Positions 47,311 to 52,152 of a DNA stretch of 64,000 nt are shown in pieces; the stretch's first letter is position 1; each line of letters starts with the position of its first letter. Origin of the DNA: Flavobacteriaceae bacterium (GTDB taxonomy: Bacteria > Bacteroidota > Bacteroidia > Flavobacteriales > Flavobacteriaceae). Under the pieces are notes generated by a model, which saw only the letters and a program-made list of their open reading frames with translations, was not told the origin of the DNA and searched no databases. The stretch spans positions 297 through 64,296 of the forward strand of contig JAFMLQ010000006.1 in assembly GCA_017852075.1 (NCBI GenBank), given 5' to 3'. The translations under genes were made by a program, and so were the position numbers.

Positions 47311-47682
47311 ATGACAAAAAAATTATTTTTATCAGGAATCGCAGGCTTTGTTGTCTATTTTCTTTTGGGATGGCTTGCTTATGGAATTTTGTTTACCGAA
47401 GACACTACAGGTGAAGAATCTTTGCTATTTATCGCATTGGGCTGCTTATTTTATGCCTTTATCTATGCGACTATTTTTACCCGCTGGGCCAATATTACCA
47501 CCTTTACTACAGGGCTTAAAGCGGGAGCTATACTGGGACTTTTGTATGAACTGAGTTGGAGCTTCTTTTTCACTTCAGGAACCATAGAGATATTCCCATT
47601 TATCAAAGGAATACTCATCGGAGTTGTACTTACCAGTTTAATGGCAGGTGTCATCGCTTATGTGAATGGGAAAGTTTCCTAA
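47311..47682 (+). CDS. Small polytopic membrane protein (4 predicted TM), function unknown
   Basis: 123 aa with hydrophobic segments throughout. It is bracketed by two strong terminators. Confidence 0.6.
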   Translation: MTKKLFLSGIAGFVVYFLLGWLAYGILFTEDTTGEESLLFIALGCLFYAFIYATIFTRWANITTFTTGLKAGAILGLLYELSWSFFFTSGTIEIFPFIKGILIGVVLTSLMAGVIAYVNGKVS

Positions 47683-47696
47683 TTCAATCATTTTAA

Positions 47697-47729
47697 ATAA
47701 AAAAGGCTCCCAATGGGAGCCTTTTTTTT
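47697..47729. terminator. Bidirectional rho-independent terminator
   Basis: A 7-bp stem GGCTCCC / GGGAGCC with a 3-nt loop, flanked by an A-run upstream and 8 T downstream. It serves the plus gene ending at 47682 and the minus operon ending at 47728. Confidence 0.8.
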
Positions 47730-48069
47730 ATTCAATTGTCCGTTTGTACAGGCAACACATTGGCAACGCATTGTATGTACTGTCAAGAGCTTTCGCTAGA
47801 GGAGTATCATGTCCCGCAAAAGCAATTGCACGTTGGACCTCTTGTATAGGTTCCTTGCTTGGATCGTAAATCACAGAAATCACATTTGAAGGAATATCCC
47901 AAGTGGCTGTTTTAATTCCTTTAACAGTCAAGGCAGCTTTTTCTATACGTTTTTTACACATTTCACAGTTTCCACTCACTTCGAAACTGGTTTTTTCATT
48001 TTTTTTGTTTTGAGCCGAAACCGATAAAGGAGCAATCAACAACAAACAAAAGAGTAAAAGCTTTTTCAT
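47728..48069 (-). CDS. Periplasmic heavy-metal-associated (HMA) domain protein with an extra C-terminal Cys pair
   Basis: Signal peptide, an HMA-like ferredoxin fold with GNCEMC (C35/C38), and a C-terminal LPMCCLY (C105/C106). Confidence 0.7.
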   Translation of the reverse strand: MKKLLLFCLLLIAPLSVSAQNKKNEKTSFEVSGNCEMCKKRIEKAALTVKGIKTATWDIPSNVISVIYDPSKEPIQEVQRAIAFAGHDTPLAKALDSTYNALPMCCLYKRTIE

Positions 48070-48098
48070 AATTTTTAAATTAAACAGTTAAATATACT

Positions 48099-50327
48099 TT
48101 ATAAATTCCAACGTAACCCTGCATAAAGCATTCTTCCAAAAATAGGTGCGTAGACTTGTGCTGTATCAAAATTAATACCAAAAGGATCTTCTGCTCCAAT
48201 TATTGGGCTGAGTTGTTTATAATCTCCAAGGTTTTCAACTCCGGCATAAAGTTCAAATTTTGCCGTAAAAGCTCGTGTCAACTGACTGTTCCATACGCCA
48301 TAAGCCGGGGCGTAACTTCCCTCAGCATCCCTTTGGGTACTAACTAGACGCTGTGGTCCCAAAGCGTGATAGGTAAGATCATAACGCCATTGGGCTTGCT
48401 TGCTATTCCTTGGAGATTCCCATCCCAGATTGGCAAAAAATCGGTTTTGAGCTTGTAAAGGACGCTGTAAGAACCCTGAATTGTAGGTGGTTTTTACATC
48501 GTAATTTTTGTAGGCAAAACGCAAACTCAAAGCCTCACTAGGGTTATAATCTATAGAAAGTTGAAAGCTGTTCGCACGACTTACACCATCTAGATTATAA
48601 AAAGAAATTTGACCTTCCTCTTCCCAATCTACAACCACTTGATCGTTAAAGTTTGTAATGTAATAGTCTGCGGTAATATCCCCTTCCCTTCCAAAAAGAC
48701 GAAACAACTGACGTACACTGACTCCGTAATTCCATGCTTTTTCGGGGTTTAAACCATAAATTGACCCTCCATTTTCTGCAATATTTATGCGACGATTTGT
48801 TCCAAAAAGGGTTTGATTTTCTGCAAAAATATTGGCTGCTTTTCTTCCACTACCTACCGAAAAGCGAAGGATGGTATTTTCTTGAGGAAGATACCTCAGA
48901 TGCAAACGTGGGGTAATAAATGTGCCCAACCGGTTGTGGATGTCCACGCGGATTCCTCCAACCAAAGAAAAATTCTCCAAACTGTCATAACTGTATTCAA
49001 AGAAACTCCCTACAGAATGATCACTTCGATTGAAGTAAAATGTATCCACGGTTTCCAAATAGCGATCATAAGAAAAGCTGATGCCTGTTTTAAATTTATT
49101 TTTAGTATTGCCAATAATTGAATTAAATAAAAGATTGGTATACACGCTTTGATGATCGATATCATAAACTCTAAAGCCATAAAAAGCCTTTTGTTTGTGA
49201 TGGCTAAAAGCGGATTGAAAACCAAAGCTTTGATAGGACAATTCTGGAAAAACATACCCTATTTTTAGTGAGGCATCTATACGGTTGGTATCGATTTCAC
49301 TGCCCCAAATACGGTTTTGATTTTGATCTTGATCTGGATCAAAACCTATAGCTCCTAGTTGTTTGTCATCTTGCATCAAACGAATGCTGCCAAAACCAAC
49401 CCATCCCTTTTCTGCGTCTGTATACTGCCATCGATTAAGGATGTTGTACTGCTGAGACAAGGGAACGTCTAAAAAAGCGTCTCCATTACGATCCATTTCT
49501 TGGGTTCTTTGGTTACCATGGACAAATAAGCCGCTGCTCCAATTGTCGTCGATTTTCCAATTACCTTGAAGGTTAGCTTCTTGTCTTCCATTGGCTGAGG
49601 TAAACAAATTGAAAAACAATGGAACGTCGGAAAAAGGTTTTTTAATTTCGGTATTGATTTGACCTGCAATACTTTCAAAACCATTGACTACACTCCCCAC
49701 ACCTTTAGTAATCTGAATACTCTCAATCCAAGTCCCAGGAGTGAAGGATAGTCCATAAGCTTGTGAAGCACCTCGTACCATGGGAATGTTTTCTTCCGTA
49801 ATCAAGAGATAAGGACTTGTAAGTCCCAACATTCGTATTTGTTTGGTTCCCGTTAAAGCGTCTGAAAAGTTAACATCAATGGAGGGATTGGTCTCAAAAC
49901 TTTCTGACAAGTTACAACAAGCCGCCTTGAGAAGTTCAGCACTGTTGACATTGACTATATTTCGCGCTTCTAAATACGATTTCTGTATCGCTTTTCTTCT
50001 TTGAATTATTGTTACTTCATCTAGTTCTCCTGCATCACTTTCTTCTAAAAAATGAATGAGTAAGCGGTTTTCTTTTACACTCAGCGTATCTGACTTATAG
50101 CCAATATAGCTTAATATGAGATATTCCTCGGGTCCTAAATAAGGAAGGGTAAACTTTCCTTCTTCGTTGGTCACAGTTCCCGTTTGTGTATTGTTCCAAA
50201 ATACATTGGCGCCAATCAATGGGATGGTTTCGTTTCCGTCTTTAGCAAGGACTCTCCCCTCAAGGTTCTCTTGAGCATTGAGTGCTAGGCCGTAAAAGGC
50301 CATGAGTATTAAAATATGTTTTTTCAT
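48099..50327 (-). CDS. TonB-dependent outer-membrane receptor with an N-terminal carboxypeptidase-regulatory-like domain
   Basis: Signal peptide, CarboxypepD_reg-like beta-sandwich, a plug region containing AACCNLSESFETN (C137/C138), a long beta-barrel and a terminal aromatic residue (RWNL). Confidence 0.85.
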   Translation of the reverse strand: MKKHILILMAFYGLALNAQENLEGRVLAKDGNETIPLIGANVFWNNTQTGTVTNEEGKFTLPYLGPEEYLILSYIGYKSDTLSVKENRLLIHFLEESDAGELDEVTIIQRRKAIQKSYLEARNIVNVNSAELLKAACCNLSESFETNPSIDVNFSDALTGTKQIRMLGLTSPYLLITEENIPMVRGASQAYGLSFTPGTWIESIQITKGVGSVVNGFESIAGQINTEIKKPFSDVPLFFNLFTSANGRQEANLQGNWKIDDNWSSGLFVHGNQRTQEMDRNGDAFLDVPLSQQYNILNRWQYTDAEKGWVGFGSIRLMQDDKQLGAIGFDPDQDQNQNRIWGSEIDTNRIDASLKIGYVFPELSYQSFGFQSAFSHHKQKAFYGFRVYDIDHQSVYTNLLFNSIIGNTKNKFKTGISFSYDRYLETVDTFYFNRSDHSVGSFFEYSYDSLENFSLVGGIRVDIHNRLGTFITPRLHLRYLPQENTILRFSVGSGRKAANIFAENQTLFGTNRRINIAENGGSIYGLNPEKAWNYGVSVRQLFRLFGREGDITADYYITNFNDQVVVDWEEEGQISFYNLDGVSRANSFQLSIDYNPSEALSLRFAYKNYDVKTTYNSGFLQRPLQAQNRFFANLGWESPRNSKQAQWRYDLTYHALGPQRLVSTQRDAEGSYAPAYGVWNSQLTRAFTAKFELYAGVENLGDYKQLSPIIGAEDPFGINFDTAQVYAPIFGRMLYAGLRWNL

Positions 50328-50380
50328 TGGGTATTTTTTATTAATTAAGGATTCTATTATTCTAAAAATAAAAGAGCTCT

Positions 50381-50800
50381 TTAACCATAAAAAATAAAAG
50401 ACTGTTGTACCAAAAAAAGTTTTTCCAGTTGAGGAGGAGGAGGATTCCAGTTGTATAATTCCTCAGAAACTGATACTGGTTTTAATTCAAGATTGTATAT
50501 AGGAAGAAGAATTATCGCCTTTAAAATCGTGACTTTAGGGGCAACTTCTAAATGAACTTTTTGAGGTTCGTGGTTTTGAAAAAGTAAGGTATCGTCTTCG
50601 CAGCACGTTTTTTTTGAAAAATTTGTTTTGAGCGGATCCGTTGCCTCCTCTTCCGATTCCATTCCACAGTCTTCTGGGAAGTAGGCAAAGGAAATCTCTG
50701 CGATGCGATCTCCACAATAATGAACGTTTAGTGCGTATCCTATTCGAGTCCCAAAAATTAGGAGGGCAAGGAAAATACTAATAAACGGCCTCATTTTCAT
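50381..50800 (-). CDS. HYC_CC_PP-type small cysteine-rich protein (signal-anchored)
   Basis: 139 aa with an N-terminal hydrophobic anchor. Motifs are NVHYCGD (27-29), EDCG (C45), KTCCEDD (66-67) and NPPPPQ (120-123). The family name is recalled from protein-family nomenclature and was not searched. Confidence 0.6.
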   Translation of the reverse strand: MKMRPFISIFLALLIFGTRIGYALNVHYCGDRIAEISFAYFPEDCGMESEEEATDPLKTNFSKKTCCEDDTLLFQNHEPQKVHLEVAPKVTILKAIILLPIYNLELKPVSVSEELYNWNPPPPQLEKLFLVQQSFIFYG

Positions 50801-50818
50801 AATTCAAAGATAACTTAT

Positions 50819-51532
50819 TTAACTAACATAACCCATTAAAAGGATACATGCCATCAACAACATGATACCGTTCTCTATCAGTGTAGCTTCTGTCATAGGA
50901 AGTTTTAAAGCGGTGCCTAAACAAGCACATTCAATTTGATCCTTTTGACGTAATGAACGTAAAACGCCATAAGTAGTAAAAGACAAAATCACTATGGTAA
51001 GTACAAGTGCAATGGGAACCTGCCATTCAAGTAAAAAAGCAGCTCCCAAGGCTGTTTCAATAAAAGGATATATTTTGGCATACCCTGGAATTTTTTTTGC
51101 TAACGGATCGTAACGCGAAAATGAATCTGGAAATCCTCGATAGTCCAAAAACTTGAAAAAGCTAAATACGATAAAAAACAGGCCCATAAAGATTTGCATT
51201 GCTCTTTGAGGACGGACCTGAAGTAAAGAGGTCAAAAAAAGAGTTCCCGCTATGAGGTAAGCAAAGATTAGAAATAAAGGAAACAATTCTTTTAGCTTGG
51301 AGGTTTTCATTCCTCGTGTTGTAATTGGAGTATCTTCTTGCACTGAATATTTTGCCCCCAACAATGCTGAAATTTTATTTACGGATAGTTTTGTTACGGA
51401 TCGAATTTGGGCAATCCCAGTTTCTAAAGAAACCTCAACAGCACTCACTTCTTCAAGGGTGTTGATTTTATCTGTAACTGCTTTTTGACAGCCCAAACAG
51501 GTCATACCAGAAATGTAAAATCGGTGTTCCAT
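50819..51532 (-). CDS. HMA domain fused to a MauE/DoxX-type redox-associated membrane domain
   Basis: The N-terminus is a classical HMA (GMTCLGCQKAV, C12/C15). It is followed by about 4 TM helices with an intramembrane CACLG (C202/C204). Confidence 0.7.
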   Translation of the reverse strand: MEHRFYISGMTCLGCQKAVTDKINTLEEVSAVEVSLETGIAQIRSVTKLSVNKISALLGAKYSVQEDTPITTRGMKTSKLKELFPLFLIFAYLIAGTLFLTSLLQVRPQRAMQIFMGLFFIVFSFFKFLDYRGFPDSFSRYDPLAKKIPGYAKIYPFIETALGAAFLLEWQVPIALVLTIVILSFTTYGVLRSLRQKDQIECACLGTALKLPMTEATLIENGIMLLMACILLMGYVS

Positions 51533-51548
51533 AGTCTCACTTCTGATG

Positions 51549-51556
51549 CAAAATTA
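51549..51556 (-). promoter_or_regulatory. -7 promoter box TAATTTTG (minus strand) for the metal operon
   Basis: Exact TAnnTTTG on the minus strand, 16 nt upstream of the ATG at 51532. Confidence 0.4.
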
Positions 51557-51666
51557 AAACTATCTGTTGTTACTAAATACTAAATTCAAGTTAAAACAAG
51601 ATTTACTTATAAATCGCCAATTAAATTTAAGCTTTAAGTTTAGAGATTGTGTACTTTTGTTCAGTC

Positions 51667-52152
51667 ATGACAGTTGTATCTCACTCCAAAATCCTAACGG
51701 AAATAGAAACCCTTTTAAACGAATCAAAAACTGACGTCTTAAAAGGTTTAAAACAATCTTGTATGCTGCTCAGAGAACGTTTTGATCACTTTGATTGGGT
51801 GGGTTTTTATTTTGCAGATTTTGACAATAAAACTTTACATCTCAAAGTTTTTTCAGGGAAACCTACCGACCACACCGTTATACCTTTTGGGAAAGGGATT
51901 TGTGGTCAGGTTGCCGTTTCAAATCAAAATTTCATGGTCCCTGATGTAAATGCACAAGACAATTACATTCCTTGCAGTATTGATGTTCGTTCGGAACTAG
52001 TTATTCCTTTGTTTTTTGAAGGAAAAAATATTGGTCAAATCGATATCGATTCAAATAAAATAGACCCCTTTTCTAAAGAAGATGAGCTTTTACTTGAAGC
52101 TTGTTGCTCACTGATTTCAAATGCCTACGGTTCGTTATTATTAAGCTTATAA
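51667..52152 (+). CDS. GAF-domain protein (free methionine-(R)-sulfoxide reductase-like)
   Basis: About 161 aa, a single GAF domain with the GKGICGQ and PCSIDVRSELVIP cysteine pattern seen in fRMsr/YebR-type proteins. The start is taken at ATG 51667. Confidence 0.6.
   Translation: MTVVSHSKILTEIETLLNESKTDVLKGLKQSCMLLRERFDHFDWVGFYFADFDNKTLHLKVFSGKPTDHTVIPFGKGICGQVAVSNQNFMVPDVNAQDNYIPCSIDVRSELVIPLFFEGKNIGQIDIDSNKIDPFSKEDELLLEACCSLISNAYGSLLLSL

What the first reader, a model, noticed from the sequence alone, without database searches (positions are those of the whole stretch)
47728..51532. Four-gene envelope-spanning 'cysteine-pair' operon: candidate uncharacterised thiol-based metal relay
A discrete transcription unit runs on the minus strand. 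An exact TAnnTTTG box lies at 51549-51556, internal gaps are 18, 53 and 29 nt, and a strong bidirectional terminator lies at 47697-47729. It encodes four products. (1) An inner-membrane fusion of a classical HMA domain (MTCLGC) to a MauE/DoxX redox-type 4-TM domain with an intramembrane CAC. (2) A signal-anchored HYC_CC_PP-type protein with HYC, a lone Cys and a CC pair. (3) A TonB-dependent receptor whose plug carries a vicinal CC (AACCNLSESFE), which is unusual for TBDR plugs. (4) A periplasmic HMA-like protein with CEMC plus a C-terminal MCC. Every component therefore presents a CxxC, CxC or CC pair, and the components are predicted to sit in the outer membrane, periplasm and inner membrane. 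That pattern is what one would expect for hand-over of a thiophilic metal (Cu(I), Zn, Cd or Hg) or a metal-thiolate complex across the envelope, possibly coupled to a membrane thiol-redox step. I know of no functional characterisation of this combination. The direction of transport and the metal are unknown.
Basis: partly seen in the sequence, partly recalled or inferred. Interest (0 to 1): 0.72.

Follow-up and report, generated by a model that had tools for sequence, protein, structure and literature searches.

The report
Conserved cysteine-pair receptor module, probably copper
This marine flavobacterial operon contains a three-gene core found across the phylum Bacteroidota (a small cysteine-rich protein, an outer-membrane TonB-dependent receptor with two adjacent cysteines in its plug, and a periplasmic metal-binding protein) that nobody seems to have characterised and that most likely handles copper.

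Summary
Four minus-strand genes (47728-51532) are separated by gaps of 18, 53 and 29 nt. They encode HMA-MauE, HYC_CC_PP (Pfam DUF8199), a TonB-dependent receptor (TBDR) and a signal-peptide HMA protein. A strong bidirectional terminator hairpin follows the last gene.

- TBDR plug CC: 100/100
- Periplasmic HMA: CxxC 85/85, C-terminal CC 83/85
- HMA-MauE: CxxC and CxC 24/24
- HYC_CC_PP: C29 125/126, C45 121/126, CC 126/126

The conserved unit has three genes, not four. In 80 receptor-anchored metagenome loci the HMA gene follows the receptor in 70/70, and HYC_CC_PP lies upstream in 60/70. HMA-MauE is present in only 13/42 and its position varies. The triad also occurs in Cytophagales and, in a divergent form, in Parabacteroides.

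Copper is the best-supported metal. In a minority of loci, Cu(I)-type P1B-1 ATPases, CusA/CusB-like efflux genes, and DUF3347 and HMBD proteins sit inside or beside the cluster. Both HMA domains are closest to Cu-ATPase/CopZ domains.

Direction of transport, the metal and the mechanism remain inferred. Both structure models were unusable, and I found no paper on this module. I class it as a new variant of TonB-dependent metal handling. An exosortase XrtF gene pair frequently sits just upstream and is unexplained.

The parts
51549..51556 (-). TAATTTTG, a candidate Bacteroidota -7 promoter box, 17 nt upstream of the first ATG
   Evidence: The sequence was read. The motif count in the window is 91 against 80.6 expected by chance, so this is weak evidence. 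The upstream alignment of 14 related loci shows no conserved operator.
50819..51532 (-). Inner-membrane fusion of an N-terminal cytoplasmic HMA domain (MTCLGC) to a MauE/DoxX-type domain with ECACLGT. This is an accessory component of the module.
   Evidence: Pfam HMA E 1.2e-9 and MauE E 2.5e-19. C12/C15 and C202/C204 are conserved in 24/24 homologues. Five hydrophobic segments place the CAC in loop 193-213. The fusion is present in only 13/42 receptor-anchored loci.
50381..50800 (-). HYC_CC_PP / DUF8199 small cysteine-rich protein with an N-terminal hydrophobic signal or anchor
   Evidence: NCBIfam NF047658 scores 62.8 bits against a cut-off of 28. The precomputed Pfam family is PF26622 = DUF8199. 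The family has 2208 representatives at 50% clustering. Among 126 diverse members: H27 125, C29 125, C45 121, C66 and C67 126, PP 117.
48099..50327 (-). TonB-dependent receptor: signal peptide, CarboxypepD_reg-like N-terminal extension, LDEVTI TonB-box-like segment, plug with invariant vicinal CC (C137, C138), and a 22-strand-type barrel
   Evidence: Pfam CarbopepD_reg_2 E 4e-15 and Plug E 1e-6. The profile matches Cir/FepA/PirA barrels at E 2e-13 to 1e-6. C137/C138 are conserved in 100/100, H270 in 100/100 and H377 in 99/100. KAACC[NDT]L..FET is invariant across four Bacteroidota classes.
47728..48069 (-). Periplasmic HMA-domain protein (signal peptide, GNCEMC) with a C-terminal CC extension
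   Evidence: Pfam HMA E 4.5e-7. The best solved relatives are Cu-ATPase N-terminal domains and CopZ. C35/C38 are conserved in 85/85, C105/C106 in 83/85 and H87 in 81/85. The gene lies directly downstream of the receptor in 70/70 loci.
47697..47729 (.). Bidirectional intrinsic terminator hairpin, shared with the convergent 47311-47682 gene
   Evidence: The sequence was read. Folding energies are -21.1 kcal/mol (minus strand) and -19.0 kcal/mol (plus strand), with z -5.3 and -4.3.

Best explanation
The operon carries a Bacteroidota-wide three-gene envelope module plus one optional inner-membrane partner. The module handles a thiophilic metal, most likely Cu(I).

**Proposed mechanism (all steps inferred).**
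1. The TonB-energised receptor takes the metal, or a weakly bound metal species, across the outer membrane. Its invariant vicinal cysteines in the plug, probably with invariant barrel histidines (H270, H377), form the metal site.
2. The metal passes by ligand exchange to the obligatory periplasmic HMA protein, which offers a CxxC site and a second C-terminal CC site.
3. The small Cys/His-rich HYC_CC_PP protein, tethered or released at the periplasmic face, buffers or presents the metal. It also serves copper efflux operons in other genomes.
4. Where present, HMA-MauE links the periplasmic pool to the cytoplasm. It acts either as a MerT-like permease that ends in a cytoplasmic CxC and CxxC, or as a MauE/DsbD-like thiol-redox device that keeps the periplasmic cysteines reduced.

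**What is shown.** Gene order, co-conservation, cysteine invariance, domain identities, and the copper-type neighbours.

**What is inferred.** Metal binding, the hand-over, import as the direction, and copper as the metal.

Retention of the module in a housekeeping neighbourhood (purH-GAF | module | groESL) of marine flavobacterial genomes favours a nutritional uptake role over a resistance island.
For: - **Domains:**
- **Receptor-HMA pairing:** 70/70. HYC upstream: 60/70.
- **Same triad elsewhere:** Bernardetia, a 3.8-Mb contig, and in divergent form Parabacteroides distasonis. Fulvitalea has HYC plus the receptor without the HMA gene.
- **Cysteine invariance:**
- **HMA similarity:** both HMA domains are closest to Cu(I) ATPase/CopZ domains.
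- **Cu(I) ATPases in or beside the cluster:** P1B-1 ATPases with CPC, NX6YNX4P and PX6MXXSS in L048, L056, L024 and L069.
- **Other metal neighbours:** a CusB-like adaptor directly upstream of the receptor in L024; CusA nearby in L015 and L054; DUF3347 and HMBD proteins adjacent.
- **HYC heading an efflux operon:** RND-OEP-P-ATPase in L097.
- **Extra cysteine clusters:** other HYC subfamilies carry additional CC/CCC clusters, as expected of thiolate metal sites rather than structural disulfides.
- **No riboswitch:** none upstream, which argues against a vitamin receptor.
- **Housekeeping synteny:**
Against: - There is no experimental datum, and no metal regulator or recognisable operator in or upstream of the operon.
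- Copper-gene neighbours occur in only a minority of loci (about 5 of 80 carry a P1B-1 ATPase). They are exporters, which fits detoxification as well as supply.
- The OprC copper motif CxxxM...HxM is absent. OprC was not among the solved-structure matches.
- The Parabacteroides HMA has MDCDHC plus a His-rich tail, which looks more Zn-like.
- The AlphaFold models were unusable. HYC had pLDDT 47, and the plug of the receptor model had pLDDT below 30. The position of the CC relative to the barrel histidines is therefore unknown.
- By alignment, the CC sits in the helix that precedes the first core strand of the plug, not in the apical loops that bind ligand in FhuA-type receptors (plus textbook knowledge).
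- Periplasmic cysteine pairs could be disulfides.
- In 19/49 loci the module sits 10-166 nt (18 of the 19 gaps are 57 nt or less) downstream of the XrtF exosortase pair. This hints at another functional link.
Confidence: 0.5

Rival explanations
1. The architecture is as proposed, but the role is protective. The module belongs to the copper-stress response. HYC_CC_PP and the periplasmic HMA protein sequester Cu(I) in the periplasm. The receptor either senses or retrieves surface-bound metal, or helps clear it. The module works alongside CopA and Cus-type exporters rather than supplying copper.
For: Every copper-related neighbour found is an exporter type. CopA-type P1B-1 ATPases lie between HYC and the receptor (L048, L056) or just upstream (L024, L069). 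A CusB-like adaptor sits in L024, CusA in L015 and L054, and HYC heads an RND-OEP-ATPase operon in L097.
Against: No TonB-dependent receptor is known to export (established knowledge). Most loci (about 90%) have no efflux gene nearby. Instead the module sits in a housekeeping region of small marine genomes. P1B-1 ATPases also include CcoI/CopA2-type pumps that load cuproenzymes, so their presence does not prove detoxification.
Confidence: 0.17
2. The transport logic is the same but the metal is different: zinc, or cadmium, cobalt or mercury. The module would be a Bacteroidota counterpart of ZnuD-type zinc receptors, or of the MerP/MerT relay.
For: CxxC HMA domains also bind Zn, Cd and Hg. NCBIfam shows sub-threshold similarity to MerTP, MerP and ZntA for both HMA domains. 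The Parabacteroides homologue has a ZntA-like MDCxxC and a His-rich C-terminus. An essential nutrient such as Zn fits the housekeeping location.
Against: The ATPases found in the cluster carry the Cu(I)/Ag(I) signature and not the Zn/Cd one. The fusion protein has the classical MTCxxC, and its best solved relatives are Cu-ATPase/CopZ domains. No merA, merR or znuABC was seen in any of about 100 loci.
Confidence: 0.15
3. The cysteines are structural or redox-active disulfides. The receptor imports an organic ligand, such as a thiol/sulfur compound or a metal chelate (a chalkophore or another metallophore made by other organisms). The HMA protein would then act as a binding protein for that ligand.
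For: Most TonB-dependent receptors carry organic chelates. MbnT imports copper-methanobactin (established knowledge). The periplasm is oxidising, so cysteine pairs may be disulfides. MauE relatives are linked to periplasmic disulfide chemistry (established knowledge). The CC is not at a classical apical ligand-binding loop.
Against: No biosynthesis genes, periplasmic binding protein or ABC importer accompany the module in about 100 loci. Vicinal CC pairs recur in three different proteins, and extra CC/CCC clusters appear in HYC subfamilies. That pattern is typical of thiolate metal sites. HMA domains are not known to bind organic ligands.
Confidence: 0.1
4. HYC_CC_PP belongs functionally to the XrtF exosortase system, as a substrate or partner. 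Its adjacency to the receptor would then be inherited flavobacterial synteny, so the real metal unit is only the receptor plus the HMA protein.
For: XrtF (TIGR04128, E 4e-62) and its partner (TIGR04127, E 1.6e-43) lie directly upstream of HYC in 19/49 loci, with gaps of 10-166 nt of which 18 are 57 nt or less (L101). HYC_CC_PP has a conserved PP motif followed by a short hydrophobic C-terminus, loosely reminiscent of a C-terminal sorting signal.
Against: HYC stays next to the receptor in lineages without an adjacent XrtF: the window itself, Bernardetia and Fulvitalea. HYC also heads efflux operons with no XrtF. The tail after PP is 12-17 residues with no basic cluster, too short for an exosortase-type anchor. 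In F. johnsoniae, xrtF deletion gives biofilm and colonisation phenotypes that are complemented in trans (PMC10936215).
Confidence: 0.08

Closest known systems
OprC / NosA copper TonB-dependent receptors of Pseudomonas
   Same: These are outer-membrane TonB-dependent receptors thought to take up ionic copper directly through a site that includes a cysteine. As proposed here, no siderophore-like ligand is needed.
   Different: There is no detectable sequence relationship beyond the generic fold, and OprC is not among the solved-structure matches. The CxxxM...HxM motif is replaced by a vicinal CC early in the plug. This family has a Bacteroidota-type CarboxypepD_reg N-terminal extension and an obligatory downstream periplasmic HMA partner.
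MerP-MerT(-MerC) mercury uptake relay and MerTP fusions
   Same: A periplasmic HMA protein with CxxC hands a soft metal by thiol exchange to an inner-membrane protein that ends in cytoplasmic cysteine pairs. Both HMA domains here have MerTP_fusion as their best NCBIfam match.
   Different: Scores are far below the family cut-offs (40 and 27.5 bits against 180). There is no MerT domain, merA or merR. The membrane partner is a MauE/DoxX fold, is optional, and has its HMA on the cytoplasmic side. An outer-membrane receptor is added.
Periplasmic copper chaperones and buffers of resistance operons (CusF, CopG, PcoE; Scs thiol-redox proteins)
   Same: These are small exported proteins encoded as accessories of copper export systems. 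CopG uses a Cys cluster (CxCC). Scs proteins couple membrane thiol-redox to copper tolerance. HYC_CC_PP heading CopA and RND operons looks analogous.
   Different: No sequence similarity was found. A profile search of solved structures gives only chance hits. HYC_CC_PP is an uncharacterised family of its own (NF047658 / DUF8199) and is mostly paired with a receptor rather than an exporter.
MauE/MauD of methylamine dehydrogenase maturation (and DoxX-type membrane proteins)
   Same: The membrane domain passes the Pfam MauE threshold (70.3 bits against 27) and keeps a conserved CxC. MauE is thought to support periplasmic cysteine chemistry.
   Different: There is no mau cluster and no MauD-like thioredoxin partner. 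Here the domain is fused to a cytoplasmic HMA domain and embedded in a metal-type gene cluster.
SusC/RagA-type Bacteroidota receptors
   Same: They share the N-terminal CarboxypepD_reg extension, the LDEV-type TonB box and the plug start.
   Different: TIGR04056 scores 62.5 bits against a cut-off of 368, and only over the N-terminus. No SusD-like gene is adjacent. The barrel is about 250 residues shorter.

Membership tests
TonB-dependent receptor | Plug domain followed by a 22-strand beta-barrel | tested here: met
   Pfam Plug scores 29.6 bits against a cut-off of 23.9. The family profile matches the barrels of Cir, PirA and FepA at E 2e-13 to 1e-6. Relatives carry a precomputed PF00593 assignment. 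The AlphaFold model shows a long run of barrel strands but at low confidence.
TonB-dependent receptor | TonB box at the N-terminus of the plug | tested here: inconclusive
   ELDEVTII (about residues 100-107) aligns with the LDEVVV and LNEVVV segments of the solved SusC homologue 8aa4 and of 9gbc. Interaction with TonB cannot be tested here.
OprC/NosA copper receptors | CxxxM in the plug and HxM in the barrel forming the Cu site, plus sequence relatedness | tested here: not met
   The sequence around the cysteines is AACCNLSESFE, with no Met four residues after either Cys. OprC is absent from the solved-structure matches.
SusC/RagA (TIGR04056) | Full-length match above the cut-off and an adjacent SusD-like lipoprotein gene | tested here: not met
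   The score is 62.5 bits against a cut-off of 368.25, covering residues 22-145 only. No SusD-like neighbour is seen in about 100 loci.
HMA (PF00403) metallochaperone-type domain | Domain match above threshold with a conserved CxxC metal site | tested here: met
   Scores are 38.8 and 30.6 bits against a cut-off of 24.8. The CxxC is conserved in 24/24 and 85/85 homologues.
MerP / MerTP mercury transport proteins | Score above the equivalog cut-off and a mer operon context (merR, merT, merA) | tested here: not met
   MerTP_fusion scores 40.2 and 27.5 bits against a cut-off of 180. MerP scores 20.4 bits against 92.55. No mer genes occur in the window or in related loci.
MauE/DoxX membrane proteins (PF07291) | Domain match above the gathering score | tested here: met
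   The score is 70.3 bits against a cut-off of 27, covering residues 111-233 and 121 of 128 profile positions.
MauE as a methylamine-utilisation factor | A mau gene cluster with a MauD partner and methylamine dehydrogenase genes | tested here: not met
   No such genes were recognised in the immediate neighbours read in the window or in about 100 related loci.
HYC_CC_PP (NCBIfam NF047658) = Pfam DUF8199 (PF26622) | Model score above the cut-off, with the HYC, CC and PP motifs | tested here: met
   The score is 62.8 bits against a cut-off of 28. PF26622 is precomputed on close relatives. The motifs are present and conserved.
Exosortase (XrtF) substrate | C-terminal signature motif, then a transmembrane helix, then a basic cluster, with a co-occurring exosortase | tested here: inconclusive
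   A PP motif is present, but the tail after it is only 12-17 residues and lacks a basic cluster. XrtF is adjacent in 19/49 loci but absent from this window.

The most novel reading that the evidence does not exclude
A phylum-wide, TonB-powered 'thiolate relay' imports free or weakly complexed Cu(I), or another soft metal. The vicinal cysteines of the receptor plug carry the ion through the barrel by ligand exchange. They hand it to matching CC/CxxC sites on an obligatory periplasmic HMA protein and on the DUF8199 protein. This would be a chelate-independent metal-uptake mechanism not described for any TonB-dependent receptor. It could explain how abundant marine Flavobacteriia obtain copper at sub-picomolar free concentrations.
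Probability: 0.15. Interest if true: 0.85.

Novelty: new variant of a known kind. Interest (0 to 1): 0.62.

Why it matters
Bacteroidota dominate particle-attached marine communities, soils and the gut, yet how they acquire or buffer copper and other soft metals at the outer membrane is essentially unknown.

This module is large. More than 589 receptor loci were confirmed in one capped scan, and the capped protein search returned 8000 receptor relatives with E <= 1e-20. The DUF8199 family has 2208 clusters at 50% identity. The module is retained in small marine genomes beside housekeeping genes, and its cysteine pairs are invariant in three different compartment-specific proteins.

If it is a copper or zinc uptake route, it would give a function to a domain of unknown function (DUF8199). 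It would also define a receptor subfamily recognisable by a simple motif (KAACCxL..FET). And it would provide a genetic handle on trace-metal limitation of Flavobacteriia in the ocean and on metal competition in the gut, where Parabacteroides carries a variant.

If it is instead a detoxification accessory, it would be the first receptor-type protein integrated into copper resistance.

Tried and rejected
1. **AlphaFold2 of HYC_CC_PP** with a 40-sequence alignment gave mean pLDDT 46.9. I ran no fold search because it would be meaningless.
2. **AlphaFold2 of the receptor** with a 31-sequence alignment (71-90% identity only, because only proteins returned by the word-indexed search may be submitted) gave mean pLDDT 58, with the whole plug (residues 99-235) below 30. 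I therefore could not test the geometry of the CC relative to H270/H377.
3. **Solved-structure searches with HYC_CC_PP** gave only chance matches to the 'HFCGG' region of trypsins, E 0.045 or worse.
4. **Phylogenetic footprinting** of the 160 nt upstream of the first gene in 14 related loci showed no conserved palindrome or operator. It showed only the promoter box of the divergent GAF gene and an AT-rich 'TTAACTT' block. The regulator remains unknown.
5. **Riboswitch control** (B12 or thiamine-type receptors) is rejected. There is no Rfam hit at gathering threshold in the 64-kb window, and the sub-threshold hits all sit on the terminator hairpin.
6. **The plasmid collection** gave nothing for HYC_CC_PP by tblastn.
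7. **Nine literature searches** found no paper on this module. Terms covered HYC_CC_PP, MauE+HMA+TonB, HMA+TonB+Bacteroid*, the Fjoh_1445-1452 locus tags, XrtF, and the annotation phrases. The Bizionia copper paper (PMC11213822) discusses a different, OprC-like receptor.
I obtained broader sampling from the plasmid collection and the metagenome scan instead.
9. **The TAnnTTTG box** is rejected as statistical evidence for a promoter, at 91 matches against 80.6 expected.

Full report
**1. Observation**

Profile searches identify the products:
- Gene 1 is an HMA domain (E 1.2e-9) fused to a MauE domain (E 2.5e-19).
- Gene 2 is a member of NCBIfam NF047658 'HYC_CC_PP' (62.8 bits, cut-off 28). Precomputed annotations on relatives call the same family Pfam PF26622 = DUF8199.
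- Gene 3 is a TonB-dependent receptor with a CarboxypepD_reg-like N-terminal extension and a plug.
- Gene 4 is an HMA domain behind a signal peptide.

The hairpin at 47697-47729 folds at -21.1 and -19.0 kcal/mol on the two strands (z -5.3 and -4.3). It is shared with the convergent gene 47311-47682.

The TAATTTTG box is present at 51549-51556. The motif occurs 91 times in the window against 80.6 expected, so it is merely compatible with a promoter.

No riboswitch or other Rfam element lies upstream. The window comes from an uncultured marine member of the Flavobacteriaceae. All 12 genome hits are such MAGs or single-cell genomes and are syntenic: purH-GAF | module | groESL.

**2. Are the cysteines conserved?**

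Yes, all of them.

| Protein | Residues | Conservation |
|---|---|---|
| HYC_CC_PP (126 diverse representatives of a family with 2208 clusters at 50% identity) | H27 | 125/126 |
| | C29 | 125/126 |
| | C45 | 121/126 |
| | C66, C67 | 126/126 |
| | PP | 117/126 |
| Periplasmic HMA | C35/C38 | 85/85 |
| | C105/C106 | 83/85 |
| | H87 | 81/85 |
| HMA-MauE | C12/C15, C202/C204 | 24/24 |
| Receptor | C137/C138 | 100/100 |
| | H270 | 100/100 |
| | H377 | 99/100 |

Other HYC_CC_PP subfamilies add further CC or CCC clusters.

Most of the 100 receptors were retrieved with a pattern that contains the CC, so that count is partly circular. However, the five orthologue-level hits found by plain tblastn in the plasmid collection come from Fulvitalea, Persicobacter, Bernardetia, Parabacteroides and Haliscomenobacter. 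The four of them that I aligned (all but Persicobacter) have KAACC[NDT]L..FET.

The nearest solved receptors lack the CC; 9gbc has STQNLSDAL at that position.

**3. Is it a four-gene unit?**

No. The core has three genes. I anchored on the receptor in a metagenome scan: more than 589 confirmed hits, 80 loci kept, 50-89% identity. I annotated the neighbours with my own HMMs.

- The HMA gene lies directly downstream in 70 of 70 loci with enough flank.
- HYC_CC_PP lies upstream on the same strand in 60 of 70, directly adjacent in 49.
- HMA-MauE is present in 13 of 42. It is found before HYC (as in the window), between HYC and the receptor, or after the HMA gene.

Anchoring on HYC_CC_PP instead gave a CC-receptor immediately downstream in 8 of 9 diverse look-ups, with the HMA gene following it wherever the contig extended far enough.

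The triad is present in Cytophagales (Bernardetia). Fulvitalea has HYC plus the receptor without the HMA gene. Parabacteroides distasonis has a divergent form. Its small protein reads ...SYCCGVC...KCCEIHGHDH...ECCGMNGC...GPP..., and its HMA protein has MDCDHC plus a His-rich tail. In Haliscomenobacter an HMA gene precedes the receptor, and a CusA/CzcA pump follows nearby.

**4. Which metal, and which direction?**

The context evidence points to copper but comes from a minority of loci.

- P1B ATPases lie inside or directly beside the cluster in L048 and L056 (HYC > ATPase > receptor > HMA), L024 (ATPase > CusB-like adaptor > receptor > HMA), L069 and L028.
- The four ATPases whose membrane part is on the contig (L048, L056, L024, L069) all carry the Cu(I)/Ag(I) P1B-1 signature: CPC, NX6YNX4P and PX6MXXSS (the signature itself is established knowledge).
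- DUF3347 and HMBD proteins, both typical companions of copper pumps, sit next to HYC in several loci.
- In Aureivirga (L097) HYC_CC_PP heads an RND-OEP-P-type-ATPase operon without any receptor. L054 shows HYC followed by CusA.
- Both HMA domains are closest to Cu-ATPase N-terminal domains and CopZ among solved structures.

Three points weigh against over-reading this. The neighbours are exporters. About 90% of loci have no metal gene nearby. And the Parabacteroides HMA looks Zn-like.

The module sits in a conserved housekeeping region of small marine genomes. Every characterised TonB-dependent receptor is an importer (established knowledge). I therefore favour uptake or supply over detoxification, but this is inference.

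**5. Mechanism proposed**

All steps are inferred.

1. The receptor binds the soft metal at a site that includes the plug CC, possibly with H270/H377.
2. TonB-driven plug rearrangement exposes the metal to the periplasm.
3. The obligatory HMA protein takes it over at its CxxC and C-terminal CC sites.
4. HYC_CC_PP has an N-terminal hydrophobic segment followed immediately by the conserved G-x-A-x-N-x-H-Y-C, so it is either cleaved after GYA or anchored. It would act as a periplasmic thiolate buffer or presenter and is shared with efflux systems.
5. HMA-MauE, when present, connects to the cytoplasm.

Hydropathy gives five hydrophobic segments. With the signal-less HMA domain inside the cell, the conserved ECACLGT falls in the basic loop 193-213 on the cytoplasmic side. 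The fusion therefore resembles the cytoplasmic end of MerT plus NmerA more than an intramembrane cysteine ladder. Alternatively, it could be a MauE/DsbD-like redox device that keeps the periplasmic thiols reduced.

**6. Comparison with known systems**

- It works like OprC/NosA (chelate-free copper receptors) combined with a MerP/MerT-type thiol hand-over.
- It is not a member of OprC/NosA: the motif is not met and there is no sequence relation.
- It is not a Mer family member: scores are far below the cut-offs and there are no mer genes.
- It is not SusC/RagA: 62.5 bits against 368, and no SusD gene.
- It is not a methylamine MauE system.
- It is a member of the generic TBDR, HMA, MauE/DoxX and HYC_CC_PP/DUF8199 families.

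**7. What failed**

Both structure predictions were too poor to use. No operator was found. No paper on the module was found. The only experimental paper that touches the neighbourhood concerns XrtF and its partner in F. johnsoniae, with biofilm and colonisation phenotypes, and it does not mention the downstream genes.

**8. Unexplained**

In 19 of 49 loci the XrtF exosortase and its partner membrane protein lie directly upstream of HYC_CC_PP on the same strand, with gaps of 10-166 nt of which 18 are 57 nt or less. This may be inherited flavobacterial synteny. It may also mean that HYC_CC_PP, with its PP motif and short hydrophobic C-terminus, is tied to XrtF. The window itself has no XrtF.

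**9. Verdict**

This is a real, very widespread and apparently uncharacterised three-gene module with an optional fourth component. I class it as a new variant of TonB-dependent soft-metal handling, most likely for copper. The direction of transport and the chemistry still need experiments.

Noticed in passing
L029 6991-7958; L101 5980-6955; about 19 further loci (for example L036, L045, L084, L086, L088): The exosortase family protein XrtF (TIGR04128, E 4e-62) and the exosortase-F-associated membrane protein (TIGR04127, E 1.6e-43) lie directly upstream of HYC_CC_PP on the same strand in 19/49 loci. The gaps are 10-166 nt, and 18 of the 19 are 57 nt or less. The window has no XrtF. The cognate substrate of XrtF is unknown, and HYC_CC_PP has a conserved PP plus a short hydrophobic C-terminus.
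   Followed up: partly
L097 7001-14423 (Aureivirga sp. CE67); L054 5013-5919: Here HYC_CC_PP/DUF8199 is the first gene of a heavy-metal efflux operon (RND pump > OEP > P-type ATPase with HMBD) with no TonB-dependent receptor. The family is therefore not receptor-specific.
   Followed up: partly
L048 991-3366; L056 4794-7898; L024 2-2942; L069 2-1663; L028 10626-11864: Cu(I)-type P1B-1 ATPases (CPC, NX6YNX4P, PX6MXXSS) and a CusB-like adaptor with a DUF3347-type C-terminal extension are inserted in or beside the module in a minority of genomes. The L056 ATPase has three HMA and two HMBD domains.
   Followed up: yes
L014 5401-5829 and 8341-8691 (Parabacteroides distasonis; filed as a plasmid but carrying ftsK, trxB and smpB): This is a divergent gut version of the triad. 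The small protein has SYCC, two more CC pairs, HGHDH and GPP. The HMA protein has MDCDHC and a His-rich tail instead of the C-terminal CC, which may mean a different metal preference. The record looks like a chromosomal fragment labelled as a plasmid.
   Followed up: partly
window 51649-52152 (+): A GAF-only protein (167 aa) is divergent from the operon, and this arrangement is conserved across Flavobacteriaceae loci. A TACTTTTG box at 51652-51659 lies inside the listed GTG-start ORF, and its reverse complement is the most conserved block of the intergenic alignment. The true start is therefore probably the ATG at about 51667. Its size and GAF-only architecture recall free methionine-R-sulfoxide reductases, which I did not test.
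   Followed up: no
window 50805-50812, 48137-48144 and 48167-48174 (minus strand): There are additional TAnnTTTG matches inside the operon. One lies in the 18-nt gap before the HYC gene, and two lie 68-105 nt upstream of the HMA gene inside the 3' end of the receptor gene. They could be internal promoters for the conserved core, but the motif is no more frequent than chance in this window.
   Followed up: no
window 47311-47682 (+): A 123-aa predicted membrane protein has no Pfam or NCBIfam match. It is convergent with the operon and shares its terminator. Among the syntenic genomes it is found only in the closest relatives (L002, where it is frameshifted into two pieces, and L003).
   Followed up: no
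window 48099-50327, receptor residues 279-289: The loop motif D-R-N-G-D-x-F-L-D-V-P has D279, N281, D283 and D287 conserved in at least 97% of 100 homologues. It resembles calcium-binding DxDxD loops. Along with H270, H377, H464 and H476, these are the most conserved non-glycine barrel residues.
   Followed up: no
L077, L080, L084, L086-L088, L090-L096: A clade of shorter receptors (668-677 aa), preceded by the XrtF pair wherever the contig extends far enough upstream, lacks the CarboxypepD_reg N-terminal extension. It keeps the CC plug, the HYC gene upstream and the HMA gene downstream. A DedA/VTT-family membrane protein often follows the HMA gene there.
   Followed up: partly
L078 6110-7276; L023 4919-7268: Other occasional inserts lie between HYC and the receptor. 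L078 has an ArsP_1-type permease. L023 has a tandem double-HMA protein, an NHL-repeat beta-propeller protein and an unassigned 256-aa protein.
   Followed up: no
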